DNA of 62,424 nucleotides, filler included, from Stramenopiles sp. TOSAG23-3 (taxonomy: Eukaryota): NCBI GenBank assembly GCA_900128585.1. It is 7 parts of 7 records of this genome, joined end to end, with 100 filler letters (N's around TTAATTAATTAA, not from the genome) between each part and the next. Parts side by side here need not be neighbours in the genome. Positions count along the whole stretch, not along the records: positions 40,595 to 50,630 come from LT642854.1; 6 more parts are not named here. One strand, 5' to 3'. The notes beneath the pieces were generated by a model that was not told where the DNA came from, did no database searches, and saw nothing but the letters and a program-made list of their open reading frames with translations. Of the stretch, positions 5,101-60,853 are shown piece by piece (the stretch's first letter is position 1; each line of letters opens with the position of its first letter). The translations under genes were made by a program, and so were the position numbers.

Positions 5101-5778
5101 ATGAAAGGCTTGAAAATTCTGCAAGCTACCGGGAGCCGTATTGGCGGTGATTTACGCACATTTTCTACTTTGACTAAACTGGAACATTTGCAGGTCTTTG
5201 GTTGCGGTATTATGGGTACATTGGGCCCATTGCATCCCCTCACAGCACTGACACTATTGTCATTGGGCGCTAATTATTTTCATGGTCCCATAACAACTTT
5301 GAGGCATTTGACCAACCTCAAAATCATTCGCCTTGTCAAAAATAAGCTGAATGGAAGCCTGGAAGCTATCCAAGGATTGAACAATTTAATGGATGTTGCA
5401 CTTACGGAAAATAAATTTTCTGGAAAAATAGATTTCTTGAACAATTTGACTAGATTACACTACTTGGGTATGGCCAATAACTGCCTGACAGGAACGTTGC
5501 AAGGGCTGACTAGAATGGAGCGTTTGGTTGAGCTCATTTTGAACGATAACATGTTTTATGGATCTGTTGGTTATCTAGGAACACTATCCCAATTGGTGTT
5601 TCTCAATCTGCGAAACAATGTTATGAATGGGTCGCTTGGGGCACTACAAAATCTGTCGAATTTGGAGACACTAGATGTGAGAAGTAATCGCTTTACAGGG
5701 TCAATACAGAATCTGTCAAAATTACCAAAGCTGAAAAACTTGCTAAGTAGTGGAAACCAGTTCAGTGGTGGCGTTTAA
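2125..5778 (+). CDS. Multi-pass membrane protein with a Cys-rich loop and C-terminal leucine-rich repeats
   Basis: Uninterrupted 1217-aa ORF. About 3 N-terminal hydrophobic helices, a Cys-rich segment (ACQASFPKC), about 7-8 further hydrophobic helices, then many LRRs of the LxxLxxLxLxxNxLxG type to the C-terminus. Confidence 0.85.
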   Translation: MEDPTEDQNDRELKGTFVFELDHDNATLNPLRDINKAIETRQNRRTVTPVSGSFVYQLPLTALGLSICFVLTTVLGIFIAKGEGKVKTLCGESTHGGIIDSFISNRTILELEFLVINFAVGHFVVLRFRTKQGKPGIKRRFVALVLLMVGVLAIIELVSPNPEETHQPASMSSEMQRNGCKLYTRGYPESISKRLFLLMNITCPAIANSGAFHMLDPDLEGTGIGLEEIIGALDGALLVLKAYFPSDFPVATVACQASFPKCEPVNCTARPRCNLLQPSRYYPQHNWYNLSYERRKELRDGDLKPARLEELLEAAPKFVADKKLAALHVAFMRNLLDETDVPFRTEWYSLGNSSTCIAERASGRCHYAFNSSDPLGNTKCSANLSQLSDWRAVRTVAFINAVVLMVCFFIFLAQGHKVVYYSVERTTSAALKVSVAQFTIFASVLFSSSLAIYGGTLLQGYNGTGLLFSYIYFAVSTGICYSSGFLIKPTRHMQYSSLWEQVEFLKPIMLRLRNHQYLQYCWTCFNPQNPQYVYRVLLFEAVEVGLQIGALLSPQSLNGDIVLTSVIVIFLNAFATAMILQFFRTSPNRVVMLITVEVICDAYFMLNGILRLQSNANLSFLEHLALIKPVATINLDLYDLYSVLQIDKYEVEGRTTRFSVMKARVRKCRLADIAARWDRILLVWLSPVLLLIFAVITALRYQAVVTKCTQKVGDIALCATEKYYFNVSGGILGTPLCNFEQVSSLQCDGSNVHYIPDNAGQYFPAVESIHLQNNPRLTHLPTTFTSGNLMALKIIDVSHTNVQNFPYGLATSRTLREIHVKSSPVSIRMSWHNHGIHSLSLPPAFIEAFQMTLKTLNLSSNNITEFPRQLCQFLALEKLDVSRNHLRSLQDNSGLCNAMMNFENLHVLQAVANNITSLAVWKRSSCATSDRTVELHAERNPLEMLRLVGIKDAVAVQKCIRSIIVPPNTFKTLLFHSCLLDNSYQLQPWAPSMKGLKILQATGSRIGGDLRTFSTLTKLEHLQVFGCGIMGTLGPLHPLTALTLLSLGANYFHGPITTLRHLTNLKIIRLVKNKLNGSLEAIQGLNNLMDVALTENKFSGKIDFLNNLTRLHYLGMANNCLTGTLQGLTRMERLVELILNDNMFYGSVGYLGTLSQLVFLNLRNNVMNGSLGALQNLSNLETLDVRSNRFTGSIQNLSKLPKLKNLLSSGNQFSGGV

Positions 5779-10061: not shown

Positions 10062-10161
10062 NNNNNNNNNNNNNNNNNNNNNNNNNNNNNNNNNNNNNNN
10101 NNNNNTTAATTAATTAANNNNNNNNNNNNNNNNNNNNNNNNNNNNNNNNNNNNNNNNNNNN
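10062..10161. other. Artificial contig-joining linker (44 N + TTAATTAATTAA + 44 N)
   Basis: The identical 100-nt cassette occurs six times; TTAATTAATTAA puts a stop in all six frames. Confidence 0.97.
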
Positions 10162-20211: not shown

Positions 20212-20311
20212 NNNNNNNNNNNNNNNNNNNNNNNNNNNNNNNNNNNNNNNNNNNNTTAATTAATTAANNNNNNNNNNNNNNNNNNNNNNNNNNNNNNNNN
20301 NNNNNNNNNNN
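20212..20311. other. Artificial contig-joining linker
   Basis: 44 N + TTAATTAATTAA + 44 N. Confidence 0.97.
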
Positions 20312-30358: not shown

Positions 30359-30458
30359 NNNNNNNNNNNNNNNNNNNNNNNNNNNNNNNNNNNNNNNNNN
30401 NNTTAATTAATTAANNNNNNNNNNNNNNNNNNNNNNNNNNNNNNNNNNNNNNNNNNNN
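30359..30458. other. Artificial contig-joining linker
   Basis: 44 N + TTAATTAATTAA + 44 N. Confidence 0.97.
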
Positions 30459-33999: not shown

Positions 34000-34072
34000 A
34001 CCCGTGTGGCGCAATGGATAGCGCATCTGACTTCTAATCAGGGGGTTGCAGGTTCGAGTCCTGCCTCGGGTA
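34000..34072 (+). tRNA. tRNA-Arg (anticodon UCU), intronless
   Basis: Cloverleaf: acceptor ACCCGTG/CTCGGGT (one U-U mismatch); D arm GCGC-AATGGATA-GCGC with A20; anticodon arm TCTGA-CTTCTAA-TCAGG; T arm GCAGG-TTCGAGT-CCTGC. Confidence 0.95.
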
Positions 34073-34742: not shown

Positions 34743-37700
34743 ATGTCAACGGTAGACGAAATACTGCATGCTGCTGAAGAGTCAGACGACGAGGAGGCAA
34801 CTTTCAGTAAAATGAAACTTGAAGACATTTTGAATTCAAAAGACGATGAATTACTTCAACCAGTTGCGCGGGCCGTGTCGTCAGATACAGGAGTCTGTGT
34901 GAACGCCAATCCTGATTATAGCAGCGTTGAAACAACACGCTACGATGAAGTTTACGGAACCCGAAATTCAAGTGTTGACGCCAGAGAATTAAACGATATT
35001 CTAGGTGAAGAAGAGGAAGAAGATGCCGCTTCAACACTAGACAAAATATTAGCTGAAAGCGAAGAAAACTTGATTGCAAAGAACAACAGAGAAACAAATG
35101 ACCGAAAAGACTATTTGGACACCGTAAGTTTTCAAAAATCTACTTGCTTATGACTTCAAACAATAGAACTTTCGCTCTAACACACACGTTCCCCCCCCCC
35201 TGTAACTATTCTATATCCCGAAGGAAACGGTATCTGCGTTTGCACGTGCAGAGAACGAATCCGAATACCTATTTTCACCCTCTTCGATGGATGGTCTGTC
35301 CCCCCTTGAGATCAAACGACGTGTGAAGAAGAAACCGTACTTGCGAACTCAGTTGGTTTTACCTTCGCAGAAAATCCAAGACAAACTGCCTTCACCATCG
35401 TCTATGTTTCCTTCTGGGGCGCGGTATTATGCCGACCGCAATACTGGGAATGGAATTAGAATAGATGCATTTAAAAATATATCAAAACTTCTCGTCAAAA
35501 ATGCTTCTTTTAAGCACAATGGTACAGGCCTACCAACTGCTATGGCTCCACACAACAAATTTATTGCCATTGGAACTTCTCACAGTCTTGTTATAGTGTT
35601 TGATCACTTCGAAGAGGTTAGGATTGTGCTGGGGTCCATGGAGAACACTGCAGATGGGGCTGTGACATCAATTGATTTCTCTATGGATAATGATGGGTAT
35701 TTAGTTTGTGGGTATTATAGCGGTAAAGTTGTTCTATGGGATGTAATAGGTGGGAAAGAACTTAAGATAATCCAAGATGCCCATGATTCCCCAATAATAA
35801 ACGTGCGATTTTGGCCAGCATCAACATCTGCAGTATCAATAGTTTCGGTCGACATGCAAGGCCGCATTAATCTTTTCACCTTCTTGAAGCGCCTATTCAC
35901 TTGGAGCGTTGATAGGCGCTGTTTAATCAATGAAAGTACTGGTCAAAAAGTAGCTTTATGCGTATTGCCTAGGAAAAGCAAAAGCCGTGCACCGGATAAA
36001 GGAAAGTGTGGAAGTGCAGAGCCTCAACTCTTGGCATTTAGCACTCATTCCGATACATATTTGGTTTCGCTATACCCAGAGCCAAGAATCTTAAAGCGAT
36101 GGTCGAAACCCGGAAATGTTACTGCTGGTGAGTTACCGTGTTTGTCCCTCGGGTGGTCACTAGCGTGGCAGACAAATAAATTGGAGAAGGCAAAAAGTAC
36201 AGCTGGTCGTGATTTGCATCCATCATTATGTCGCGGTTGGGATCGATATCTTCAAATAGTAGCTGTACAAAGTCCTGTGGGGAGTGTAGAAGGCGATTGT
36301 CAATTCAATGTAAGTCACGTGTTTTGTACTGATCTCCCTATTGTACTCGTCGATTGGGTGTGCGAAAAGAGAATTGTTTACATGAACACCGAGCATATAT
36401 TTGTCGTATTAGATTTGATTTCTGGCACAGAAGTAGAAGCAGTAAATTTAGAGTCTGCGTCTCTTGCCTACGCAACTCTACCAAGTGGAAAAATAAACGA
36501 TGAAAATGTGGGAGGCACAAAACATTTGTTGTCTACAACTTGTGCGCATGTCCAATCTTACTTCAATAGTGTTCGGGCATGTGACTCTCGGATTTACGTA
36601 CTAGGGCAAAAAGATTTGCGCTGCGTGAGCATTCAATCTTGGCAAAACCAAGTAAAAATTTTGCAACGAAATGGTGATTGGATAGAGGCATTGCTTCTAG
36701 CATTGGAAAATTACAAACTGGAAAAAAAATCTATTGGAGAGGTAAGTGAATATGATAGTGACCTTACAAACCATGTAAATAGAGAGGGAAAACAAGCAAT
36801 GAATGGTGCAAACGATTCTCTTGTTGCTGACCTTTTGATGGAATATGTAGATATCAGTCTAGGGAAACACGCGGGAAACCTTGATGGTTCGTACAAAATT
36901 GTCGGAGAAATGTGCATCGACTACTGCGCAAATATTGCAAGAAACGATTTGCTGTTTGGGCCGATATATGAAAGATTTATTAAAATTGGGCAACGTAGTA
37001 CATTTTTGAATACGTTGCAGAAATACATATTGGGTGGTAAAGTCAAGCATGTCCCCGCTGTCGTAATGAAGGACTATCTTGATTTTTATCAGTTGCATGG
37101 ACAATTTTTGACAATTGAAAACTCTTTGTTGAAATTAAACCCAAAAAAGTTTGATTTTGACGGAATAATCAAGTTTTGTGCGAACCATAAGTTGTACGAC
37201 GCACTGATTTATGTCTTTAATTGCGGTATGCAAGACTTTACATCACCATTTCAGTTTTTGAAAGACCACGTCGTTGCCCAATGTGATCTTGACGGCCAGA
37301 CAGAGACACCCCTTGAAGATTTGTGCTTAAGAATGGAATCAAATTGGGGAGAAGAAGTTGAAATCTGCGGCCGAAAATTGATTGCATATGCAGCTTCTGT
37401 TTTGGTCGAAAAGAATGTGATTGAGGAAGTTGCTGGATTATCGTTCCCTCGAGATCAAGTTTTAGACTTTTTATTTCAGGAAAGGTCCAGGTTCACTCTA
37501 AAAATTATGTTGATTGTTGATGCTTCCCAATTCTTTGATATATTCCGCGGGATTTTTTTTAAAGATCCTAAACTAGAAAGTTCTATTGCTATTTGGGTTC
37601 CGATGCTCAATGAATTGCTGTCTTTTGAAAATTTGTCCGTAGATCTTCGAAACTTGAGATTTGCTTCCATTTTAATCAAGTTTGTCTTGTTCATTGCTGA

Positions 37701-39174
37701 TATATATTCAATTTGTGTGCCTAAACACGATTTAGTTGAGCTGACCAGGAACTGTCTGTGTCATCTGTTTGCCTTCGCGCAATTGGAGATGTATGCAAAA
37801 GAGACAGAAAGATGCGTGCCACAATTTCTTCAACTGCTCCTTACCCAAGTACCATTTCCCTTGCGCGCAAAATCTCTTGAGGGCATGGAGGAGAAAATTA
37901 AGTGCGTCCCCAAAGCTCTTGGTTTATTTTATGAAAATCATGGTGAATATGGGAAAGCTTTAAGTGCATATGTGCTCTCATTGGATTCTGAAGTTTTTCG
38001 TATGGTGCTCCAAGCTTTCACGTCTGATAGAGTTCAAATAAGTGATGAAGACAAGATTGACTTGAGGCGGCTAGTGCTTACTAATTTACCTAAATTTGTA
38101 TTAATTGACCGGAAGCAAACATCGTTATTAATTCGTTCAATTTTTCCTGGGCAGCATGCTATTGTATTAAATGATATCGGCGACCCGTTGCTTCAGTTTG
38201 AATATTTAAAACAGCTGATAAGTAAAGATATCACGGCAAACGAAAAATTTGAACCGGAAATTTATAACCAATATGTGAAGGTAAGTAAAATTTGATTAGA
38301 TCATTGTTTCATCATTTCCTTAACTAACATTATTAACTAACATTATCTCATGTTTTGGCGCAAAAAGCTGCTTTGCCAGTTTGATAGAAACAACGTGCTA
38401 GATTTTTTGCGTAAAGAAGATGGGTATTCACTCGATAAAGTTTTATGCGTAACAAAAGAATATGCAATTCTAGATGCAACTGCGTATTTGCTAGTCAGAA
38501 CTGGTAATGTGACCGAAGCTGTTAATTTGCTTGTGTTGGACATGGCAGAGTCCATGTCTGAGACAAAGTTGAGCGCACTGGTTGATTTAATTTCCAGCAT
38601 AGATGATGAAAAACAATGGTTTATTGTACTGGATGCATTGATTGCCCAAAAGCAGACAAACTCATCCAACCCTCTTGCAAACAAGCTTATCCATAAATTG
38701 TTGGAGTCCATGAAGTTTAATGTTAATTTAAAATCAGTTTTGTTACATTTGACAGATAATGGATCTGGTGAGAAAGAAACTCTAGGCGCATTTCGGACAA
38801 CAATCAATAGTATGCTTGGAAATATCACTTATGAAAAAGAAGTATTGAAAAGCGTAAAAAAGTTGCAAGTTGAGACAACGTACAAAAGCATTCAAAGTAG
38901 ACATAAATTAAGATGCGGGGCAGCAACAGATGTTGACATATGGGACTCGACAATATTGTTGGATGACCATAATAGCAAAATTGCTGGAAGCATTGAGTTT
39001 GGAAAAAGGAGACAGAGGAAAATGATGAAACGTTACAAAGCAAAAATCTCGACGAGACATCGCCGTTTCTTATCAAGTTATTTTCGAATAAATAAAGAGA
39101 ATACCAATCGCAGTGGGGATAAACCAGTGGGTATTATTAGGTCAAGTAACTTGTTATTTTCTTCTGTGATTTAA
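34743..39174 (+). CDS. VPS8: CORVET subunit Vps8; join(34743..35123,35224..38280,38368..39174)
   Basis: GLPTAMA...FIAIGTSHSLVIVFD, GDWIEALLLA, FCANHKLYDALIYVFNCGMQDFTSP, YNQYVK|LLCQFDRNNVLDFLR. Two phase-0 GT-AG introns join the three ORFs in frame. Confidence 0.9.
35124..35223 (+). other. Spliceosomal intron 1 of VPS8 (100 nt)
   Basis: GTAAGT donor, CTCTAAC branch point, C-rich tract, AG acceptor; removal keeps the frame. Confidence 0.8.
38281..38367 (+). other. Spliceosomal intron 2 of VPS8 (87 nt)
   Basis: GTAAGT donor, duplicated ACTAAC branch motif, AAAAAG acceptor; removal keeps the frame and restores the YVK|LLCQFD motif. Confidence 0.88.
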
Positions 39175-40494: not shown

Positions 40495-40594
40495 NNNNNN
40501 NNNNNNNNNNNNNNNNNNNNNNNNNNNNNNNNNNNNNNTTAATTAATTAANNNNNNNNNNNNNNNNNNNNNNNNNNNNNNNNNNNNNNNNNNNN
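40495..40594. other. Artificial contig-joining linker
   Basis: 44 N + TTAATTAATTAA + 44 N. Confidence 0.97.
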
Positions 40595-40674: not shown

Positions 40675-42507
40675 ATGTCGACCCCAGAAGAGCGTCTTCT
40701 TGCAACTGGCTGTCGCCTGCCCCCAGCCCCGGAGCCATTCGGTGCCTATCGGCCAACGGTTGATGTACAGACCCAAAGCGATGGGTCCATCCTGTGTTAT
40801 GTATCCGGCCATGGACCGCAGCTTCCAGATAAATCGTTCATGCATGGGAAGGTCGGGGTGGATATGACGAAAGAGGAAGCCGTCCGAGCTTCAAAACAGA
40901 CGGCGCTGTCCGTGTTGGCAACGTTGAGAAATCGTCACGGAACGTTGAACGCAGTGAAACGAATTCTTAAATCGCTTGTCATGGTAAATTGTGTTCCGAG
41001 TTTTACCGATCATATTGCTGTTGCGAACGGGTATTCTGAATTTATGAAGGAAATATTTGGGGATAGTGGTGTCGGGGTTAGAAGTGCAGTCGGCATGGGA
41101 AGTTTGCCAATGCATACACCAGTGGAAGTCGAATTACAAGTAGAATTTTTCCCGCCCAAGGGTCGCGGCTACCCATTGTACGATAGCGTTGTAAACTGTT
41201 GTGGCCATTTCACGTCGCTGGGGGGATCATTGATTCACCCAAAGGCTATGGAAGCGATGATTCGCGTCTCGAAACATTTTGTCGACTTGAACGAACTGAT
41301 TGTCAACGCTGGTGAACGCATCAAAGACCTTTGCAACGCACCGCCTGGGTACAATGGTCATGTAACATGTGGAGCGGCGGCAGGACTCTCCCTCTCCGCC
41401 ATCGCGTGCATTGCCAAAGGGATGGGACACGATGGGTTCGATCCTGCCGTTATTTCTTCTCTTCCCAAGATCCCGCCGACTTGCAGCCGAAGGGTAATTC
41501 TAGTAGACGCCGGGTCAGATATGCGGTGGTTGCAGTCCATTGAACTCTCGGGCGCCAAAGTTGTTGCCGTTGGTGCAGGGGGCAGAAAACCCATGACTGA
41601 GGCCGACCTGCAGGCGGCACTTAGCAAATACGCTGAAACTATTGCGGGCCTGTACTATTTCAGTGGTGGCGGTGAGAATATTTTGTCAATTGGAGACGTA
41701 GTGGACGTTGTCAGGCGGAACCATGCACTCGACATCCCAATCATTGTGGACGCGGCCGCTCGCCTTCCCCCAGTTTCGAACTTGACGTTGTTTGTCGAAA
41801 CATACGGTGTTGACTGTGTTCTATTTTCAGGTGGGAAAATAGTAAAGGGTCCCCAATCGTCCGGGTTCATGATAGGAAAAGACTGGCTCATTCGCGCTGC
41901 CCGAGCAAGCGCGTGCCCGAATGAGTCAACTGTAGGAAGGCCAATGAAGACGTCGAAAGAGAGCGTTGTAGGGCTCGTAGCAGCCCTCGAAGAGTTTGTC
42001 AAGGATAATAAGGCCTATCCCCACGAAGCAAATTGCATTGCACGCTTCATCGCAGGAGGCCTTCTGGCAGGCCCACGGGGGCTGCAACATTATTTCGATG
42101 CCGTGCTGAGGAATGGGGAAGACGCGGGCATGAGCGATGTGCAGCCCAACATGCACGAGCTAGTGCATATAAAATTGAAGAACTTGAAGCTAGAAAACGA
42201 GTGTACCGGTGTCTCTCCTTCTTCGACCTCTTTGTACGGGGAAGGTGTAAACCATGGGAACCCAATGAAAATAATGGTGACTTCGCCAGCAACGTATCTC
42301 GCGGACCGACTGTCAAACTGTTCCCCCAGGCGAATAGCAGTAAATACGACTGAATCAGGGCTGTTGATAAACCCAATTGTGATGACAGAAGACGACGCGA
42401 GCTACGTGGTCGGCAAAATCTTTTCGGAAGTGGAAGGGATGGCTCGTCGCTTTGGAAGTGGAACATACAAAGAGGCCGCAAACGCACTAGCAAGTGCAAA
42501 GTTGTAA
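40675..42507 (+). CDS. Fusion of a Rid (YjgF/RidA superfamily, Rid1-like) domain and a DgaE/SelA-like PLP-dependent lyase domain, with C-terminal PTS1
   Basis: aa ~1-158: LPPAPEPFGAY, YVSGHGP, GKVG, VANGYSE, RSAVGMGSLP, VEVE. aa ~168-600: VVNCCGHFTSLGGS, VTCGAAAGL, PIIVDAAA, FSGGK(388)IVKGPQSSG, GRPMKTSKESVVGLVAALE. Ends in -AKL. Confidence 0.88.
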   Translation: MSTPEERLLATGCRLPPAPEPFGAYRPTVDVQTQSDGSILCYVSGHGPQLPDKSFMHGKVGVDMTKEEAVRASKQTALSVLATLRNRHGTLNAVKRILKSLVMVNCVPSFTDHIAVANGYSEFMKEIFGDSGVGVRSAVGMGSLPMHTPVEVELQVEFFPPKGRGYPLYDSVVNCCGHFTSLGGSLIHPKAMEAMIRVSKHFVDLNELIVNAGERIKDLCNAPPGYNGHVTCGAAAGLSLSAIACIAKGMGHDGFDPAVISSLPKIPPTCSRRVILVDAGSDMRWLQSIELSGAKVVAVGAGGRKPMTEADLQAALSKYAETIAGLYYFSGGGENILSIGDVVDVVRRNHALDIPIIVDAAARLPPVSNLTLFVETYGVDCVLFSGGKIVKGPQSSGFMIGKDWLIRAARASACPNESTVGRPMKTSKESVVGLVAALEEFVKDNKAYPHEANCIARFIAGGLLAGPRGLQHYFDAVLRNGEDAGMSDVQPNMHELVHIKLKNLKLENECTGVSPSSTSLYGEGVNHGNPMKIMVTSPATYLADRLSNCSPRRIAVNTTESGLLINPIVMTEDDASYVVGKIFSEVEGMARRFGSGTYKEAANALASAKL

Positions 42508-43437: not shown

Positions 43438-43619
43438 CCTGGTATGTCAGGTGTTCGTTCGGTTTTTACTCTACGACGACTACTGCTAATAATAAAACAA
43501 GAACATGAAGTGTGTGAGCAAAGAACCTCTTGTTCTTTCCCCTTCGTGCATCTGATATTCTCTCTTTGTGTTTATATATATAAAGTACATATACATTGTA
43601 CTAGATGATTTTATTGCAA

Positions 43620-44046
43620 AAGCGAAAGCGAAGAAAGAAGAAGAAAAAAAAAGAAGAAGAAGACGACGACAAAAAAAAAAAAGTAAGAAGGAGGTAGGAG
43701 GAGAGAAGAAGAGAAGCAGAAGAAGAAGAAAAGAAGAAGAAGAAGAAGAAGAAGAAGAAGAAGAAGAAGAAGAGAAGAAGAAAAGAAAGAAGAAAGGAGA
43801 AAGAAGAAGAAAAGGAAGAAGAAAAGGGAAGAAGAAGAAGAAGAAGAAGAAGAAGAAGAAGAAGAAGAAGAAGAAGAAGAAGAAGAAGAAGAAAAGAAAG
43901 AAGTAAGGAGAAAGAAGAAGAAGAAGAAGAAGAAGAAGAAGAAAGAAGAAGAAGAAGAAGAAGAAGAAGAAGAAGAGAAGAAGAAAAGAAAGAAGAAGAA
44001 AAGGAAGAAGAAGAAAAGAAGAAAAGAAGAAAAGAAGAAAGAAAAC
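43620..44046. repeat. ~430-bp (GAA)n purine tract
   Basis: Directly visible; almost pure A/G on the + strand. Confidence 0.95.
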
Positions 44047-44697
44047 AAAATATAATATAAAAAAGTACTTCTTCCTTCCTTTTCCTCCTCTGCCTTTTAT
44101 TTAACTGCTCTGTAAATAGTCTTTTATTTATATAGGCCTCATGGTAGCCGTATGATTATCGGCTCATAACATACTCTCTTATTTATATAGGTGAATATGT
44201 TGAATAATACATACTTTAAGTAGTATAATACATACGTAGTCGTCTTTTTTTAATTATAACTTAATGAAGATATAACATTACGTAGTACTAGGAATGATTA
44301 AGATGAATGTAATTATAATAATAATTAGAATACAATATTATTTCATTCCTTCTCTACTTCATATGCACCACAAATATTTTAATGATTCTCTGACCTTCAG
44401 GGTCTCTTTATTTTAGTCATATAGCATATAGCACAGCATTAAAGAAAGAAAGGTACTGTAACATCGACATAGTATTTAATTAAGTAAATCAATATTTCTA
44501 TATGAAAACTTTCCATCACTTTTTTTACTTTCGCGAATATTCTATTTGATATTAGATATATAAAACCCAAAAAAAGTGAGATAAATAATTGTTCATCTTT
44601 CTTCTATATATATGTTATCCTTAATTATTAAAAGGACAATATCAAAGGGAATAAATTGGAATTTCATTCGATTGAATTGGATGGCCAAGAAGGATTG

Positions 44698-45235: not shown

Positions 45236-48200
45236 ATGACGACGACAACGGAAGGTGGGGAAGACGAGGTGCAGAGCACTGGGCCGCGCCCCTTTATGGA
45301 GTGTTTTTACGCACTTGCTGACGTCGACATTGCGACGAGGCACTCGGCCACCGAGGATTTGATCAAACATTTGCGTGGGGAGATTTCCATCTCCGAGGCC
45401 CGAAAGCCGGACATAAACTACGCAATAAAGCGCCTAGTTCGGGGGCTCTGCTCGTCGCGCGGCGCGGCACGCCAAGGCTTTTCCTTGGCTCTGAGCGAGA
45501 TCCTGCAGTCCTTTGACGACTCGGAAGTAGCGACGTCTAGCGTCATCGAACAGCTCGATTCTGTTCGAACGCGCCCCCAAAATGTAGGGAAGAGCGCAAA
45601 GTCGGGGCAGGACGAGCGAGACCTTATGTTTGCAGGGATTTTTGGCTGCCTGGCCATTCAACAGTCGGGGCGCCTGAAGAGCAAGTCCGCCGCGAAGGCG
45701 ACCACAAAGCTCGTCCAGGTTCTCCTTAGCGTGGCAAAGAAGAAGCGGTGGGCCAAGCAGTCCTGCTACGAAGTTGTGCTCACCATATTGCAGGAACTTT
45801 CGCTGGAACGGGGAGAAGAAGAGGTCCTACCGCACCTGAAGGCCCTTTTCCTCGTCAGGCGCAACCACAGCGCGAACGCCAACGGGGACGAGGGCGAGGA
45901 CAAGAACGCCGATGCTCCGGGCGAGGACAAGAACGTCCAAGCGCTGGAAACCTACGCAGAAAGTTTGGAAGACTTCGACACTGAGCAGCTTCAGCTGGGC
46001 CTCGGGCTTCAGGTGTGGCTGATGGCCAGTACCAAAGGCGACAAGGCGGCCATGAAGCGCGTCGGCGCCGGGGCAGGACTCCCCAAGGCCGTGTACTCCA
46101 CCAAGTCGATGGTGCGCAGTGGGCACGTCAAGCACGTCGTGAACGCGCTCCAAGAATCGGCGCGGTTCTCTCCCGGGGTCCACGCCGTTTGGGGGCACGT
46201 TATCAGAGCCCTCATGGACGAAGAGAGGAAGGGAAAGTCTATGCTACGAGAGTTCTGGGTGGAAGGAATAGAGGCCCCGCTGATGCGGTCGACGCAGCAA
46301 CGGAGGGCCCTCGCATTCGAAATATTCCGACACCTCCTTCCGCAGCTGAACGTCCTGCAAGCCCCGCAACTGTGCACCCCGACGGTCCTGTACTCTCTCG
46401 CGGTGCATCTTGCGTCCGCGGACAGTCACCTCCACATGTCCGCCCGGCTTTGCATGAAAACGCTGCTCTCCGTGGCGGAAAAGAGCATGGAAATGAGGAG
46501 TGCTTTAGTAAGTGCCATCCTGGTGAGCGACCCGCACTTTGACCAAAGGTCGCAGCCAAAGAATAAAAGAAAAAGCAAGAAGGGCAAAAAGAAGGGGCAG
46601 GCCTCCGCGCAGTCGTACGAGGGGCCGACGGCACGGCTCCTCAAAGGCTTGGACGGTCCGGCATTTCAGAATTACATCGATTTCTTGAAGGCCCAGATAT
46701 TGGAGCCAACGCTAGACGCAACTGAGAAAGGGGCCTCGGAGAACGCCGACGACGGTGTCGACGCCCGGCGCGTATGGGCCATTGACGCACTGTACGCGTC
46801 CACGAAAAATGCCATCCGAAAGGGCCAGGAAAAGAAGGACGAAGCGAGCATTTCTAAAATATTGGAGTTTTTGTTTGACTGCGCGTACCTGGTGGACTCC
46901 TCCATGGTGCTATCGCTGCCTCATAAAATACGAACCGTGTGCGCGCAAAGACTGTTTAGCCTGCTCTCTGACCTGACGGTCGACGAGGACCGAACGAGCG
47001 GGAAGTGGGCCAAACTGATTCACGACCACTGGGACAAGAAGGAGAAGAGCAAGAAAGTAAAGTTTGTAAAGGGCGCTGACGAGGACACGGTGGCGGCGAA
47101 GAAAGCGATGGGACGTTTGCTGGGCGACATCCAGAAGACACTGGGAAAGAAGAAGATAGACGAGGAACTGGCTGCCCAACTGACTGCCTACCGTTCCCTA
47201 GTGCTCCATGTAGGGCTCAGCCTGCTCTCCGCGCTGTCCGAAAATCGCAGCAATGCCGACGGGGACGACGACGACGAGTCGTCTGCCGTAGACGAGATGA
47301 CGGAGCTGCAGGAGATTTATAAAAAGCTGTTCGGGGATGCAAAAAAGTCAAAAAAGAAGCCAAAGAAGAAGAAGGGCGTAGACCAAGAGAGCCTGATCCT
47401 TGTGTTGGACGACGAGGAGGAGGGAGAGGAAGGCGCGGGCGCCGAGGAACCCGACGCTACGAGCGTTTTTGTGGACGTCCTGCTCGGCATGCTCACGCAG
47501 TCAAAAACATTGCACCAGCGCCTCCTGCGCGACGTTGCGAATGCTACGTTTCGAGCATTGTGCCCGTTGCTGTCGGCCGCCGCCGTATCAAATTTGCTGA
47601 AAGCCTTGGAGCAAGAACAAAACCTGGATATGGAGGAAGAAGATGACGACGAGTTCGGTTTGATCGACCCGTCCCAGGTAAAGGACGCGAAGAGGACGCC
47701 AAGCCTTCGCCTAAACGAAGCGGGAAAGGCAGCAAACTGCCACGAGACGAGGACGAAGTCGAAGACGATTCCGACAGCGATGACCCAGAGGAACACGTAG
47801 GGGAGGATGAGTACATGGCCCTTCTCGAGTCTAGGTTTGGCATGCTGTCGAGAAAGTCGAAGAAGCGCGACGCGCTAGAAATCCAGCGCCAGGAATTGAA
47901 CTTCAAGATGAGGGTGTTGGACATGATCGAAATATACCTGAGACGAAACTCGTCTTCCATTTTTGCGCCGCAGATGCTCATGTCCTTCATGCGCGCCCTG
48001 CGAGCGTGTTACGAGTCCATAGACAAAGGTTCCAGCGACAAGAAAGAGCGCCTTTCGCGCAAGAGCTTGCTGGATCGACTGCTTCGCGTATTGAACAGTC
48101 GCCTGCTCGGGAAGAAAGACGTCCCAGAAAGACAATTCGTGGTGGCCACGTCGGACGTGCTGCACAAATGCTTTGAGGATTTAGTCAAAGAAGCCCTTAC

Positions 48201-48978
48201 CGCCCCAATTCCGAAGCACGAGGAAATTGCGAGCTTGTGCGCGATCTACGTGTTGCGAACCTTGCGGAGCACCCGAGAGAATGACGGCAACGAACTGTTT
48301 GGTGCCCTGGACATCGATCGAGTAAAAAAATCTCTTAATTTTGCTCTGGTTAATTTTTTGAGAAAAAAGAACTCGAAGTTAACCGAAAAGTTTTTCTCCA
48401 ACATATTTTTGAGGCAGCCGGACGTTGCGATGTCCACCCTTGCTGCTGGGCTCACCGCTGCCGCGGCAAGCACCCCGACCACTAGCAGCAAAAAAGCGAG
48501 TACCCCCGTCTGCCGAACCCAGTTTGACCGCGTGATGGTATTTCGCCTGATGATGCTCTTGCTTCGACACGCTGGTGTGGATCGTTCCAAAAGCGTGGTG
48601 GGCGACGTTGCAAAGGCATTCTCCTCTTTCTTGGGCGAGAAGGACACCGTCGGCATGCGCGCCAAACGGCTTCGCCCCTTGTTTGAGTTTGGGATGCAGC
48701 TGAGTAAAACAATCAAAGCGTCCGGGGCCAAAGTAGACGAGAAAGCAATGAAGCAAATTGCCGGTGGTCTGGGGCGTGTCAGGGAAGGAGCTGAAAGCAA
48801 CGCTATCAAGAGCATATGCGTGCGCGTTGAACAAGCATTCTCTGGGGAAGAGGTCGTTGTCCCCTCCCGCAAGAAGAAGGAGAAAAAGAGAAAAATCGAA
48901 CAATCGGACGATAAAGACAAGGTCGAGTCCACCACAAAGAAGTCCAAAAAGAAGAAGAGCAAGAAGAGTAAGAAGTAA
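45236..48978 (+). CDS. MYBBP1A: Pol5/MYBBP1A nucleolar rRNA-biogenesis factor, frame broken at ~47680-47695
   Basis: YAIKRLVRGLCSSRGAARQGFSLAL, ERDLMFAGIFG, VFVDVLLGML...LLRDVA in the first ORF. The acidic region, FKMRVLDMIEIY and the lysine-rich tail lie in a second frame. Confidence 0.88.
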
Positions 48979-50630: not shown

Positions 50631-50730
50631 NNNNNNNNNNNNNNNNNNNNNNNNNNNNNNNNNNNNNNNNNNNNTTAATTAATTAANNNNNNNNNNNNNN
50701 NNNNNNNNNNNNNNNNNNNNNNNNNNNNNN
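50631..50730. other. Artificial contig-joining linker
   Basis: 44 N + TTAATTAATTAA + 44 N. Confidence 0.97.
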
Positions 50731-60753: not shown

Positions 60754-60853
60754 NNNNNNNNNNNNNNNNNNNNNNNNNNNNNNNNNNNNNNNNNNNNTTA
60801 ATTAATTAANNNNNNNNNNNNNNNNNNNNNNNNNNNNNNNNNNNNNNNNNNNN
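60754..60853. other. Artificial contig-joining linker
   Basis: 44 N + TTAATTAATTAA + 44 N. Confidence 0.97.

What the first reader, a model, noticed from the sequence alone, without database searches (positions are those of the whole stretch)
40675..42507. Rid imine deaminase fused to a DgaE/SelA-like PLP ammonia-lyase, with a peroxisomal PTS1, in a eukaryote
Seen: one intronless ORF joins two intact-looking domains. The Rid domain keeps the Arg in RSAVG (R136, equivalent to the catalytic Arg105 of RidA). The fold-type-I PLP domain keeps DAAA and the Schiff-base Lys in FSGGK (K388). The protein ends in -AKL. Known: bacterial D-glucosaminate-6-phosphate ammonia-lyase (DgaE, SelA-like family) releases an enamine/imine that Rid proteins hydrolyse, and [SAC][KRH]L is the PTS1 consensus. 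Both domains look bacterial in type; eukaryotes use SepSecS, not SelA. Inference: a self-detoxifying or channelling deaminase for an amino-sugar acid or hydroxy-amino acid, probably acquired horizontally and moved to the peroxisome. I do not know of a described eukaryotic example.
Basis: partly seen in the sequence, partly recalled or inferred. Interest (0 to 1): 0.85.

Follow-up and report, generated by a model that had tools for sequence, protein, structure and literature searches.

The report
Peroxisome-tagged Rid–PLP deaminase fusion
A marine protist gene joins a bacterial-type, vitamin-B6-dependent amino-acid-deaminating enzyme to a helper domain that destroys its reactive product, and carries a peroxisome address tag; the family is conserved, unstudied and mislabelled in databases.

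Summary
ORF 40675-42507 (+) encodes 610 aa with R136 in RSAVG, D359AAA, K388 in FSGGK and a C-terminal -AKL. It lies among unmistakably eukaryotic genes.

The N-terminal domain belongs to the Rid1 subfamily, which the literature calls prokaryote-only. It is not RidA. The C-terminal domain is a SelA/DgaE/Cap15-type fold-type-I PLP enzyme. It is neither SelA nor DgaE proper: it lacks DgaE's His162/His163 and its three phosphate-binding arginines.

The fusion is conserved in 10 protein clusters, 41-67% identical by BLASTP. All 10 end in [SA][KR][LM]. None of 146 bacterial-type relatives does.

Unfused PTS1-bearing relatives occur in diplonemids, a euglenid and Picozoa. All eukaryote-type sequences form one clan nested among prokaryotic ones.

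In prokaryotes the PLP gene recurrently neighbours, or is fused to, Rid genes and amidohydrolases. Some protists carry an amidohydrolase-Rid-PLP triple fusion.

Best reading (confidence 0.6): a peroxisomal ammonia-lyase for a non-phosphorylated beta-hydroxy-alpha-amino acid (amino-sugar acid or D-Ser/D-Thr-like), with a built-in Rid1 domain that hydrolyses the released enamine/imine.

Activity, substrate and import are untested. I found no published description.

The parts
40675..42507 (+). Whole intronless ORF: 610 codons plus TAA
   Evidence: Colinear with 9 other fused clusters.
40675..41151 (+). Rid1-subfamily imine/enamine deaminase domain, residues 1-159
   Evidence: PF14588 scores 45.5 bits against a 35-bit cut-off. 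PDB Rid1 proteins 9bkb and 9bk9 are hit; their Rid1 assignment comes from PMC5619798. 50-56% identical to standalone 153-155-aa bacterial Rid proteins.
41080..41082 (+). Codon of Arg136, the counterpart of the catalytic Arg of RidA
   Evidence: Invariant in 13 of 13 sequences and 23 of 23. Lies at the predicted trimer interface.
41152..41181 (+). Variable linker between the domains, residues 160-169
   Evidence: Length and sequence vary among orthologues. pLDDT is below 50 at residues 166-168.
41182..42015 (+). Fold-type-I PLP core of the SelA/DgaE/Cap15 group, residues 170-447
   Evidence: TIGR01437 E 1.4e-34. 7lc0 E 5.5e-23. Foldseek finds 8t7j and 7lc0 at E about 2-3e-21 with TMt 0.80-0.83.
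41749..41760 (+). D359-A-A-A motif; in fold-type-I enzymes this Asp binds the pyridine N (established knowledge)
   Evidence: D359, A360, A361 and A362 are invariant in 13 of 13 sequences. Aligned to DGL IVDAAA.
41836..41838 (+). Codon of Lys388, the Schiff-base lysine in FSGGK
   Evidence: Invariant. Aligned to the SGAK lysine of DGL.
42016..42480 (+). C-terminal domain of the PLP enzyme, residues 448-602, with the QPNxHxL motif (490-496)
   Evidence: A profile aligns it to DGL residues 264-367. DGL R301 corresponds to L496 and R346 to I568; R332 lies in a DGL-only insertion.
42235..42264 (+). Eukaryote-specific insertion YGEGVNHGNP, residues 521-530
   Evidence: Present in the fused and the unfused eukaryote-type sequences of A3 (window, P0096, P0098). 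Absent from its 4 other sequences, P0102 and three further non-PTS1 relatives. Y521, G522, G524, V525, H527, G528 and P530 are invariant.
42496..42504 (+). C-terminal tripeptide AKL, a PTS1 consensus
   Evidence: All 10 fused clusters end in [SA][KR][LM] after a variable tail. pLDDT is below 50 at 605-610, so the tail is predicted to be disordered.

Best explanation
The gene encodes a nuclear-encoded, peroxisome-targeted bifunctional enzyme of bacterial ancestry.

Proposed working:
1. The C-terminal -AKL takes the folded protein into the peroxisome through the PTS1 receptor.
2. The PLP domain (Schiff base at Lys388, Asp359 at the pyridine N) binds a non-phosphorylated beta-hydroxy-alpha-amino acid. 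Candidates are a 2-amino-2-deoxy-aldonate such as D-glucosaminate, or a D-Ser/D-Thr-like acid.
3. It eliminates water, as DgaE (DGL) does.
4. It lacks DGL's His163, which protonates C-3 on the enzyme, so it releases an enamine/imine.
5. The N-terminal Rid1 domain (Arg136, at a trimer interface) hydrolyses this to the 2-oxo acid and ammonium. That protects other peroxisomal PLP enzymes.
6. The substrate is probably supplied by an EF_0837/PRK09237-type amidohydrolase that removes an N-acyl group. That enzyme is fused to the same polypeptide in other protists and is the neighbouring gene in many bacteria.

Shown here: domain identities, conserved catalytic residues, a conserved PTS1, one eukaryotic clan nested among prokaryotes, and recurrent prokaryotic neighbourhood or fusion with Rid genes and amidohydrolases.

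Inferred: reaction type, substrate class, import, the oligomer (a trimer of PLP dimers) and any channelling.
For: Domains and residues.

PTS1.
- 10 of 10 fused clusters end in AKL, SKL, SRL, ARL or SKM, although the preceding roughly 25 residues vary.
- 59 of 66 eukaryote-type sequences have a PTS1-like end. Many of the 66 are near-copies. Of the 7 exceptions, 3 are cut-off fragments (P0067, P0156, P0237), P0011 and P0012 have aberrant C-terminal tails, P0105 is a 235-aa fragment ending -GYT, and P0096 ends -AAL.
- Controls: 0 of 146 bacterial-type relatives, 0 of 80 prokaryotic locus genes and 0 of 119 standalone Rid proteins have such an end.

Eukaryotic setting. Neighbours are Vps8, Utp11, Pol5, Prp31, EDC4 and Snf7. 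GC3 is 0.52, inside the neighbours' range of 0.36-0.75. RSCU correlation is r = 0.56.

Named relatives. Unfused PTS1-bearing relatives carry EukProt labels of Ploeotia vitrea and Picozoa sp. SAG31. Artemidia motanka (ends -AAL) and Lacrimia lanifica (ends -GSA) also have relatives.

Trees.
- PLP domain: all 21 eukaryote-type rows form one clan (SH-aLRT 96). The Rid-fused rows are nested inside it (99). Sixty-one presumed prokaryotic rows lie on the other side.
- Rid domain: the fused domains form one clan (96) whose internal branching largely matches the PLP tree, so one fusion event suffices.

Functional linkage in prokaryotes.
- A strong EF_0837-type amidohydrolase neighbour occurs in 17 of 80 genome loci. 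In 11 of the 17 it lies directly upstream on the same strand. It also occurs in 12 of 80 metagenome loci.
- Rid1-type genes lie in the flanks of 6 of 160 loci.
- RidA-type genes lie in the flanks of 16 of 160 loci, 10 of them within 1 kb on the same strand.
- L145 is an operon in the order Rid1, amidohydrolase, PLP. L082 has Rid1 then PLP, 22 bp apart.
- P0102, the non-PTS1 sister of the eukaryote clan, sits on a contig with prokaryote-like gene packing, in the order amidohydrolase-like, PLP, RidA.

Independent fusions: amidohydrolase-Rid-PLP ending -ARL (P0004, P0068); amidohydrolase-PLP (P0116, P0208); PLP-RidA (P0175); PLP-M81 peptidase (P0211).

Mechanistic precedent. H163A DGL releases the free enamine. 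The authors argue that His163 is kept to avoid a cytotoxic intermediate (PMC9529869, parts 1-2 of 3 read). The window has G332/G333 at that place.

Analogous triad. In the marine ong cluster, OngB deacetylase, the OngC PLP deaminase (acts on GlcN1A, D-Ser and D-Thr) and the OngD RidA protein are all essential (PMC9537276, passages).

Rid domain trimer. ipSAE 0.96 against a best control of 0.00, partner pLDDT 94, at least 97% of contacts shared between runs. The mark was reached by 21 of 30 solved one-chain pairs and 0 of 23 single chains. The calibration used two copies, not three, and Rid trimers are solved, so this pass shows likeness only.
Against: - The PLP domain scores below both NCBIfam cut-offs: 119.6 against 385.3 and 99.6 against 600.
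- Its two nearest solved relatives do different chemistry: DGL is a dehydratase and Cap15 an O2-dependent monooxygenase-decarboxylase. Homology therefore does not fix the reaction.
- DGL's HH motif is also absent from the 6 other sequences aligned in A3, fused or not (P0107 has one His nearby), so its absence does not by itself explain the fusion.
- Only 22 of 160 prokaryotic loci have a Rid-superfamily gene in the flanks. Most relatives manage without an adjacent Rid.
- The Rid genes beside bacterial PLP genes are not the closest relatives of the fused Rid domain.
- No RNA contig spans the junction, and RNA libraries may contain DNA.
- No genome is held, so PEX5, other peroxins and a partner amidohydrolase could not be sought. 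No amidohydrolase lies in the window.
- Bacterial contexts point two ways: to sugars (sugar-type binding protein, Gfo/Idh/MocA, SDR, NagB-like) and to amino acids (family-3 binding protein, MR/MLE).
Confidence: 0.6

Rival explanations
1. The PLP domain is an O2-dependent oxidase or monooxygenase-decarboxylase like Cap15. It acts on a beta-hydroxy-alpha-amino acid. The peroxisome houses the oxygen chemistry, and Rid1 hydrolyses an imine product.
For: Cap15 (8t7j) matches as well as DGL: 248.1 against 252.3 bits by profile, and Foldseek E 2.2e-21 against 3.2e-21. Cap15 also uses a beta-hydroxy-alpha-amino acid (PMC7497351, passages). From general knowledge, peroxisomes typically hold O2- and H2O2-linked enzymes.
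Against: Cap15 comes from an antibiotic pathway, and its described product is a carboxamide, which gives a Rid domain nothing obvious to hydrolyse. The prokaryotic contexts found here look catabolic: transporters, amidohydrolases, SDR and Rid. No residue diagnostic of O2 reactivity is known to me, and none was tested.
Confidence: 0.12
2. The PLP domain catalyses a non-eliminating reaction (retro-aldol cleavage, transamination or racemisation). The Rid domain only guards against an occasional side-reaction, or serves another peroxisomal imine producer such as a D-amino-acid oxidase.
For: One look-alike Atlas cluster carries the automatic name 'putative threonine aldolase'; its score of 0.88 makes it a lead only. 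Fold-type-I enzymes are chemically versatile. Rid proteins hydrolyse imines made by amino-acid oxidases (PMC4433059 abstract; PMC5619798 passages).
Against: The only relative with a defined catabolic role, DGL, is an ammonia-lyase. The repeated, independent pairing of this PLP family with two different Rid subfamilies, by fusion and by adjacency, points to a main product that is an imine or enamine.
Confidence: 0.12
3. The protein works as in the best explanation but is cytosolic; the -AKL ending does not direct import.
For: Import was not tested, and no peroxin could be sought because no genome is held. P0096 (-AAL), P0112 (-GSA) and P0116 (-SNL) depart from the strict consensus.
Against: 10 of 10 fused clusters keep [SA][KR][LM] after a variable tail. 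None of 146 bacterial-type relatives, 80 locus genes or 119 standalone Rid proteins has such an end. The tail is predicted to be disordered and exposed.
Confidence: 0.08
4. It is a true selenocysteine synthase (SelA), as automatic annotations say.
For: JGI names three members 'seryl-tRNA(Sec) selenium transferase', and a Tara record lists K01042. There is a weak Pfam SelA hit.
Against: TIGR00474 scores 21.5 bits against a 267.9 cut-off, and Pfam SelA 15.4 against 22.8. By profile, SelA chains score 60-77 bits against about 250 for DGL and Cap15. A Rid domain sits where, from recall, SelA has its tRNA-binding N-terminal domain. A PTS1 makes no sense for a tRNA-modifying enzyme.
Confidence: 0.01
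5. It is an artefact: an assembly chimera of two bacterial genes, or bacterial contamination in a eukaryotic assembly.
For: Both domains are bacterial in type. No RNA contig bridges the junction.
Against: The ORF is continuous and flanked on both sides by eukaryotic genes on one contig. Its codon usage is like its neighbours'. The same 610-aa protein appears on 7 other contigs. Ten diverged clusters share the architecture. It has an insertion and a PTS1 that the aligned non-PTS1 relatives lack.
Confidence: 0.02

Closest known systems
[quoted passage not shown]
   Same: Fold (TMt 0.83). Alignment over the full length of the PLP part (252 bits by profile). The Schiff-base Lys and the DAAA Asp are kept. 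The basic residue at the alpha-carboxylate position is kept (R226 corresponds to K401). The likely substrate class is the same: a 2-amino-3-hydroxy acid.
   Different: Below the equivalog and family cut-offs. No His162/His163. The Arg301/332/346 phosphate cluster is replaced by Leu, a deletion and Ile. Extra insertion at 521-530. Carries an N-terminal Rid1 domain and a PTS1. Eukaryotic.
Cap15, the O2- and PLP-dependent monooxygenase-decarboxylase of capuramycin biosynthesis, PDB 8t7j
   Same: An equally close structural and sequence relative. Its substrate is also a beta-hydroxy-alpha-amino acid.
   Different: Belongs to a biosynthetic pathway in Streptomyces, with an oxidative decarboxylation product. 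No Rid or amidohydrolase partner appears in the passages I read.
Bacterial Rid1 proteins (PA0814, ACIAD3089; PDB 9bk9, 9bkb)
   Same: Same Pfam family and the same conserved Arg. 50-56% identity to standalone bacterial homologues, one of them labelled 'group 1'. A trimer is predicted.
   Different: Here it is a domain of a 610-aa eukaryotic protein. The literature states that Rid1-7 occur only in prokaryotes (PMC5619798 abstract). The fused domains form their own clan.
The ong cluster of marine Pseudoalteromonas (OngB, OngC, OngD) for GlcNAc1A from oxidised chitin
   Same: Same three-part logic: an N-deacetylase, a PLP deaminase that also takes D-Ser and D-Thr, and an essential Rid-family protein whose role is unexplained (PMC9537276 passages).
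   Different: Non-homologous parts: OngC is fold-type III and OngB a D-aminoacylase. The genes are separate and act in the bacterial cytoplasm.
Prokaryotic DgaE-like operons found here (L145, L082, L083, L001-L009 and others)
   Same: The same PLP subfamily sits beside a Rid1 or RidA gene and an amidohydrolase. The Rid-then-PLP gene order in L082 matches the domain order of the fusion.
   Different: The genes are separate. They have no PTS1 (0 of 80 genome loci), and the prokaryote-type sequences aligned in A3 lack the 521-530 insertion.

Membership tests
Rid superfamily, Rid1 subfamily | Matches the YjgF/Rid1-type model above threshold, and its nearest characterised relatives are Rid1 | tested here: met
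   PF14588 scores 45.5 bits against a 35-bit cut-off. PDB hits 9bkb and 9bk9 are listed as Rid1 in Table 3 of PMC5619798. A 50%-identical hit is named 'superfamily, group 1'.
Rid superfamily, Rid1 subfamily | Conserved arginine needed for imine hydrolysis (Arg105 of RidA; conserved in Rid1-3 according to the PMC4433059 abstract) | tested here: met
   R136 is invariant in 13 of 13 sequences and 23 of 23. It aligns to Arg in 3d01 and 9bkb.
Rid superfamily, Rid1 subfamily | Homotrimer with active sites at subunit interfaces | tested here: inconclusive
   Three copies of residues 1-165 give ipSAE 0.96 against a best control of 0.00, pLDDT 94, with at least 97% of contacts shared. R136 touches residues 44-45 of the next copy. 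Solved Rid trimers exist, so the pass may come from memory. The calibration used two copies.
Rid superfamily, Rid1 subfamily | Imine/enamine deaminase activity | not testable with these tools
   Needs an enzyme assay.
RidA (archetypal subfamily, TIGR00004) | Score above the family cut-off | tested here: not met
   15.2 bits against a 106.25 cut-off. PF01042 scores 16.6 against 27.3.
[quoted passage not shown] | Score above the equivalog cut-off | tested here: not met
   99.6 bits against a 600 cut-off.
[quoted passage not shown] | His162/His163, strictly conserved in DGL sequences (PMC9529869) | tested here: not met
   These positions align to G332/G333. No His stands there in any of the 10 fused clusters.
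[quoted passage not shown] | Arg301/Arg332/Arg346 cluster placed at the 6-phosphate (PMC9529869 docking model) | tested here: not met
   R301 corresponds to L496, R332 lies in a DGL-only insertion, and R346 corresponds to I568. This rests on a sequence and profile alignment, not a superposition.
[quoted passage not shown] | PLP Schiff-base Lys, the Asp to the pyridine N, and a basic residue at the alpha-carboxylate (R226) | tested here: met
   K388 and D359 are invariant. R226 corresponds to K401, which is basic in 9 of 10 fused clusters and Gln in P0006.
DgaE family (TIGR01437, subfamily model) | Score above the family cut-off | tested here: not met
   119.6 bits against a 385.3 cut-off, although it is the best-scoring model. 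The bacterial relatives P0013 and P0020 also score below it, at 190.7 and 215.1. I therefore file the domain as a sister subfamily within the SelA/DgaE/Cap15 group.
SelA (selenocysteine synthase) | Score above the cut-off; an N-terminal tRNA-binding domain (the latter from recall) | tested here: not met
   TIGR00474 scores 21.5 against 267.9, and PF03841 15.4 against 22.8. A Rid domain occupies the N-terminus.
PTS1-targeted peroxisomal matrix protein | C-terminal [SAC][KRH][LM] tripeptide, conserved among orthologues | tested here: met
-AKL. 10 of 10 fused clusters keep the motif. Controls give 0 of 146, 0 of 80 and 0 of 119.
PTS1-targeted peroxisomal matrix protein | PEX5-dependent import, and presence of peroxins in the organism | not testable with these tools
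   No genome is held for this window. Needs a localisation experiment.

The most novel reading that the evidence does not exclude
This family is the first natural context that tells what a Rid1 protein is for. It would be a three-step peroxisomal module: an N-deacylase, then a DgaE-like PLP ammonia-lyase, then a Rid1 imine hydrolase. Marine, probably bacterivorous, protists would have taken it over from bacteria and progressively welded it into one polypeptide. With it they could burn N-acetylated D-amino acids or amino-sugar acids from bacterial walls or from oxidised chitin (GlcNAc1A). The assembly would be a trimer of PLP dimers capped by Rid trimers, passing the enamine from one site to the other.
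Probability: 0.25. Interest if true: 0.8.

Novelty: new variant of a known kind. Interest (0 to 1): 0.62.

Why it matters
Three reasons.

1. The physiological partners of the Rid1-3 subfamilies are still unknown. A conserved covalent fusion, backed by independent fusions and operons in prokaryotes, names a partner enzyme. That makes the question testable with a single recombinant protein.

2. It contradicts the published statement that Rid1-7 occur only in prokaryotes. It also adds a bacterial-derived amino-acid or amino-sugar-acid catabolic step to the peroxisomes (glycosomes in diplonemids) of several poorly known protist lineages.

3. Database pipelines label these proteins as selenocysteine synthase. 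That would mislead inventories of selenium metabolism in marine metagenomes.

Tried and rejected
- The genome search 'own': no genome is held. Peroxins and a partner amidohydrolase could not be sought.
- RNA evidence for the junction: contigs of four RNA libraries cover 40693-40941 and 41452-42347 but leave 40942-41451 uncovered. This says nothing either way.
- Lineage of the organism: the neighbouring Prp31 finds named relatives at only 28-34% identity, all fungi, which is probably a word-sampling effect. Its closer relatives (45-50%) are unnamed. The lineage is left unresolved.
- ESM Atlas: only bacterial SelA-like clusters, at 0.87-0.88, below the level that counts as more than a lead.
- First attempt at a genome scan with 19 diverse sequences: the alignment had no conserved stretch. 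It was repeated with 7 sequences.
- My Rid1-specific HMM missed RidA-type neighbours. An iterated search started from the L083 RidA corrected this.
- The paper on cog3964 amidohydrolases (Ornelas et al. 2013) is not held. I saw only its title in a reference list, so the substrate range of the partner amidohydrolase family is not used as evidence.
- The glycosome-evolution paper PMC9512073 has no hit in its main text for RidA, selenocysteine, seryl-tRNA, ammonia-lyase or glucosaminate.
- The model's coordinates cannot be inspected. The distance between the two active sites, the role of the 521-530 insertion and the fit of a hexamer were not assessed.
Full report
OBSERVATION. One search lists a single ATG-started ORF at 40675..42507 (+) of 610 aa.
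- R136 in RSAVG;
- D359 in DAAA;
- K388 in FSGGK;
- AKL at 608-610, followed by TAA.

An in-frame stop lies 21 codons upstream of the ATG. The 87-residue N-terminal extension in one public gene model of this protein (P0047) is therefore not supported. The orthologues and the bacterial Rid proteins start at the same methionine. Bases 40495-40594 are masked N.

Domain hits:
- Pfam PF14588 on residues 5-146, 45.5 bits against a 35-bit cut-off.
- NCBIfam TIGR01437 'DgaE family' on residues 171-447, E 1.4e-34.
- PDB: DGL 7lc0 (E 5.5e-23) and four Rid-family chains, 3d01, 9bkb, 2otm and 9bk9 (E 6.5e-16 to 2.6e-12).

The linker is residues 160-169, nt 41152-41181.

A REAL EUKARYOTIC GENE. The window's other ORFs are Vps8, Utp11, DNA polymerase phi/Pol5, a class II aldolase, a tRNase-Z-like protein, Snf7, EDC4, Prp31, CRAL-TRIO, a cyclic-nucleotide-gated channel, and WD40, ankyrin and LRR proteins. 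They lie on both strands.

The gene's GC (0.517) and GC3 (0.524) fall inside the neighbours' range (GC3 0.36-0.75). Its RSCU correlates with the pooled neighbours at r = 0.56, like theirs.

Independent occurrences:
- Five of the 11 members of its 90% cluster are full 610-aa proteins on 7 other contigs.
- Fourteen DNA runs, all but the best holder labelled marine or seawater metagenome, hold 0.62-0.95 of the stretch's sampled words. The best holder may be the source sample.
- Contigs from four RNA libraries of three studies, one of them oligo-dT primed, lie on both halves but do not bridge the junction. The tool warns that DNA may be present in such libraries.

I could not name the lineage. Prp31's named relatives are only 28-34% identical.

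THE FAMILY AND ITS PTS1. The word-indexed search found 10 clusters with the same Rid-PLP architecture, 41-67% identical by BLASTP. The only source names are JGI's automatic 'seryl-tRNA(Sec) selenium transferase' (on P0010 and on three members) and 'COG0251 K01042' in a Tara record.

In the alignment of 13 sequences, R136, D359-A362 and K388 are invariant. Every sequence ends in AKL, SKL, SRL, ARL or SKM, although the preceding roughly 25 residues are not conserved.

The exhaustive profile search gave 10,658 hits at E <= 0.001. Only two full-length fused representatives appear at 50% clustering, so the fused family is small. It also found a second group of unfused proteins that share the extended C-terminal domain.

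Using my own domain HMMs on 239 proteins, I counted PTS1-like ends:
- 59 of 66 eukaryote-type sequences have one. Many of these are near-copies.
- Of the 7 exceptions, P0067, P0156 and P0237 are cut-off fragments, P0011 and P0012 have aberrant tails, P0105 is a 235-aa fragment ending -GYT, and P0096 ends -AAL.
- 0 of 146 bacterial-type sequences have one. That set includes P0112 (-GSA) and P0116 (-SNL), which the tree places with the eukaryotes.
- 0 of 80 prokaryotic locus genes and 0 of 119 standalone Rid proteins have one.

EukProt labels place unfused members in Artemidia motanka and Lacrimia lanifica (diplonemids, by my recall of taxonomy), Ploeotia vitrea (a euglenid) and Picozoa sp. SAG31.

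THE PLP DOMAIN IS NEITHER DgaE NOR SelA.
- It scores below the DgaE-family cut-off (119.6 against 385.3), the DgaE equivalog cut-off (99.6 against 600) and the SelA cut-off (21.5 against 267.9).
- A profile of seven family members aligns over the whole length of DGL (252 bits) and of Cap15 (248 bits). SelA chains reach 60-77 bits.
- Foldseek on the AlphaFold model (mean pLDDT 87.0, pTM 0.78) ranks Cap15 8t7j and DGL 7lc0 together (E about 2-3e-21, TMt 0.80-0.83), ahead of SelA.

The DGL paper was read in parts 1-2 of 3 (PMC9529869). It states that:
- His162/His163 are strictly conserved in DGL;
- His163 protonates C-3, so that the imine rather than the enamine leaves the enzyme;
- H163A releases millimolar free enamine;
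- Arg226 sits at the carboxylate;
- Arg301, Arg332 and Arg346 sit at the phosphate.

Mapped through, His162/163 correspond to G332/G333. R226 corresponds to K401, which is basic in 9 of 10 clusters. R301 corresponds to L496 within a QPNxHxL motif. R332 falls in a DGL-only insertion. R346 corresponds to I568. A 6-phosphorylated substrate is therefore unlikely.

Both solved relatives act on beta-hydroxy-alpha-amino acids. The eukaryote-type sequences in A3 share an insertion, YG.GV.HG.P at 521-530, that its four other sequences lack.

THE RID DOMAIN IS Rid1.
- RidA models score below threshold: TIGR00004 15.2 against 106.25, PF01042 16.6 against 27.3.
- PA0814 and ACIAD3089, two of the four solved Rid-family relatives hit, are Rid1 representatives (Table 3 of PMC5619798, passages).
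- Searching residues 1-165 against shorter proteins gave 4,229 hits. The named ones among the best 120 are standalone bacterial proteins of about 153-155 aa, at 48-56% identity. They are labelled Planctomycetota, Bacteroidota or Verrucomicrobiota, and one is named 'superfamily, group 1'.
- R136 is invariant in 23 of 23 aligned sequences.

The abstract of PMC5619798 says that Rid1-7 'are present only in prokaryotes'. PMC4433059 says 'largely confined to bacteria'.

TREES. For the PLP tree I used 83 rows:
- all 10 fused representatives;
- 11 unfused eukaryote-type rows;
- 34 other proteins picked by hand from those retrieved;
- 28 of the 80 genome loci.

The method was the quick search with LG+C20. 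All 21 eukaryote-type rows form one clan (SH-aLRT 96), with P0102, which has no PTS1, as sister (96). The fused rows, with P0011 and P0012, form a nested clade (99). The other 61 rows, taken as prokaryotic (28 are named MAG or genome loci), lie on the other side. The root is not inferred. A single transfer from prokaryotes is the parsimonious reading, not a demonstrated one.

For the Rid tree I used 58 rows:
- 7 of the 10 fused clusters, leaving out the three with truncated Rid domains;
- every third one of the 119 proteins fetched that follow its top hit P0290 (40 rows);
- 3 Rid genes that neighbour bacterial PLP genes;
- 5 other proteins, giving 8 domain rows.

The fused domains, with P0097, the MMETSP transcript P0325 and the long-branched P0143, form one clan (96). 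Its inner branching largely mirrors the PLP tree, which fits one fusion event. The bacterial-neighbour Rid genes lie elsewhere, so the two domains need not have arrived together.

PROKARYOTIC CONTEXT. The genome scan confirmed relatives in 573 of 600 pattern matches and kept 80 loci. They come mostly from Chloroflexota, Poribacteria, Gemmatimonadota and others.

Amidohydrolase neighbours:
- 17 of the 80 genome loci have a strong EF_0837/PRK09237-type amidohydrolase in the flank. In 11 of them it ends within 150 bp upstream on the same strand.
- 12 of the 80 metagenome loci have one too.

Rid neighbours:
- Rid1-type genes lie in the flanks of 4 + 2 loci.
- RidA-type genes lie in the flanks of 16 of 160 loci, 10 of them within 1 kb on the same strand.
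- Together that is 22 of 160. By my rough estimate, not a computation, this is about ten times what a few Rid genes per genome would give by chance.

Three clear cases:
- L145 runs: sugar-type ABC transporter, MR/MLE enzyme, Rid1, Amidohydro_3, PLP.
- L082 runs: SDR, ROK regulator, NagB-like protein, Rid1, then PLP 22 bp downstream.
- L083, the contig of P0102, runs: family-3 amino-acid ABC transporter, IclR regulator, DUF6282/amidohydrolase-like protein, PLP, then RidA 11 bp downstream.

Other recurrent neighbours are SDR, Gfo/Idh/MocA, epimerase and acetyl-esterase genes.

Independent fusions exist:
- amidohydrolase-Rid-PLP ending -ARL (P0004, P0068);
- amidohydrolase-PLP (P0116 ending -SNL; bacterial-type P0208);
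- PLP-RidA (P0175);
- PLP-M81 peptidase (P0211).

The amidohydrolase part matches PDB chains named amidase, dihydroorotase and adenine deaminase by their depositors.

HOW IT PROBABLY WORKS.
- A deacylase frees a 2-amino-3-hydroxy acid.
- The PLP domain eliminates water.
- Without an on-enzyme proton donor of the DGL kind, an enamine/imine leaves the active site.
- The Rid1 domain hydrolyses it to a 2-oxo acid and ammonium.

The fusion guarantees that the Rid activity is imported with its producer into a compartment that, in many eukaryotes, holds other PLP enzymes. That last point is general knowledge and was not tested here.

The Rid domain is predicted to trimerise, with R136 at the interface. 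The scores were ipSAE 0.96, best control 0.00, pLDDT 94, and at least 97% of contacts shared. The mark was reached by 21 of 30 solved pairs and 0 of 23 single chains. The calibration used two copies, and solved Rid trimers may explain the pass.

Fold-type-I enzymes are dimers, so a hexamer is the simplest assembly. This is an inference.

A non-homologous precedent for the triad is the ong cluster of marine bacteria. There a deacetylase, a PLP deaminase that takes GlcN1A, D-Ser and D-Thr, and a RidA protein are each essential, and the role of the RidA protein is unexplained (PMC9537276, passages).

The substrate remains open between an amino-sugar acid and a D-hydroxy-amino acid, because the bacterial contexts point both ways.

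NOVELTY AND LIMITS. Searches for DgaE with Rid, DGL, Rid1/Rid2, RidA with peroxisome and PTS1, and SelA with PTS1 found no description of such a eukaryotic protein. These searches cover only the open-access library that is held. Supplementary tables, for example those of PMC9512073, were closed.

Pairing a Rid protein with a PLP lyase is a known idea, so I rate this a new variant of a known kind. It has three new features: a Rid1 domain in eukaryotes, the covalent fusion, and the conserved peroxisomal signal. No activity, localisation or oligomeric state has been measured.

Noticed in passing
window 35287-39174 (+) and 45236-48978 (+): Vps8 is split into two ORFs (35287-38295 and 38350-39174, same frame, 54 nt apart). 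Pol5 is also split (45236-47800 and 47815-48978, different frames). These are probably short introns, which fits the presence of a Prp31 gene. Frameshifts are not excluded.
   Followed up: no
window 34000-34072 (+): A lone tRNA-Arg (anticodon TCT) lies between protein genes.
   Followed up: partly
window 43568-44048: A long purine-rich, low-complexity tract gives poly-K/E/R and poly-S/F ORFs on the two strands. It lies in the intergenic region after Utp11.
   Followed up: no
window 35287-38295 and 2125-5778: Codon usage is strongly heterogeneous among neighbouring genes. GC3 is 0.36 in Vps8 and 0.45 in the LRR gene, against 0.70-0.75 in Utp11, Pol5 and the MFS gene. Vps8's RSCU correlates negatively (-0.24) with the others.
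   Followed up: no
protein P0095 (555 aa, a cluster of 14 members on ENA contigs): It carries three tandem Rid domains (PF14588/PF01042). By eye, the 59 residues before them look like the C-terminal end of a fold-type-II PLP enzyme. In the Rid tree its three domains group together among the bacterial-type rows, outside the clan of fused domains.
   Followed up: partly
protein P0042 (466 aa, JGI contig of 1784 nt): A Rid1-type N-terminal piece (47% identical to the window's) is fused to a fold-type-III D-serine-dehydratase-like / BhcC-like PLP enzyme. This is a second kind of Rid1-PLP fusion, built on a different PLP fold.
   Followed up: partly
loci L001, L002, L003, L009, L014, L019, L021, L052, L075: A conserved protein of about 172-174 aa, with no Pfam match at E <= 0.05, lies upstream in the amidohydrolase-PLP gene cluster in 9 of 80 prokaryotic loci. 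In L009, L014 and L021 it directly precedes the amidohydrolase gene. In L075 it directly precedes the PLP gene.
   Followed up: partly
protein P0218 (1468 aa): A DgaE-like PLP domain is fused to DUF6025 and an AMP-binding (adenylating) enzyme. This points to a biosynthetic rather than catabolic use of the same PLP family in some prokaryotes.
   Followed up: no
window 10062-10161, 20212-20311, 30359-30458, 40495-40594, 50631-50730, 60754-60853: Pairs of 44-base N blocks recur about every 10.15 kb. They look like masking, not biology. One pair hides the region 80-180 bases upstream of the ORF.
   Followed up: yes
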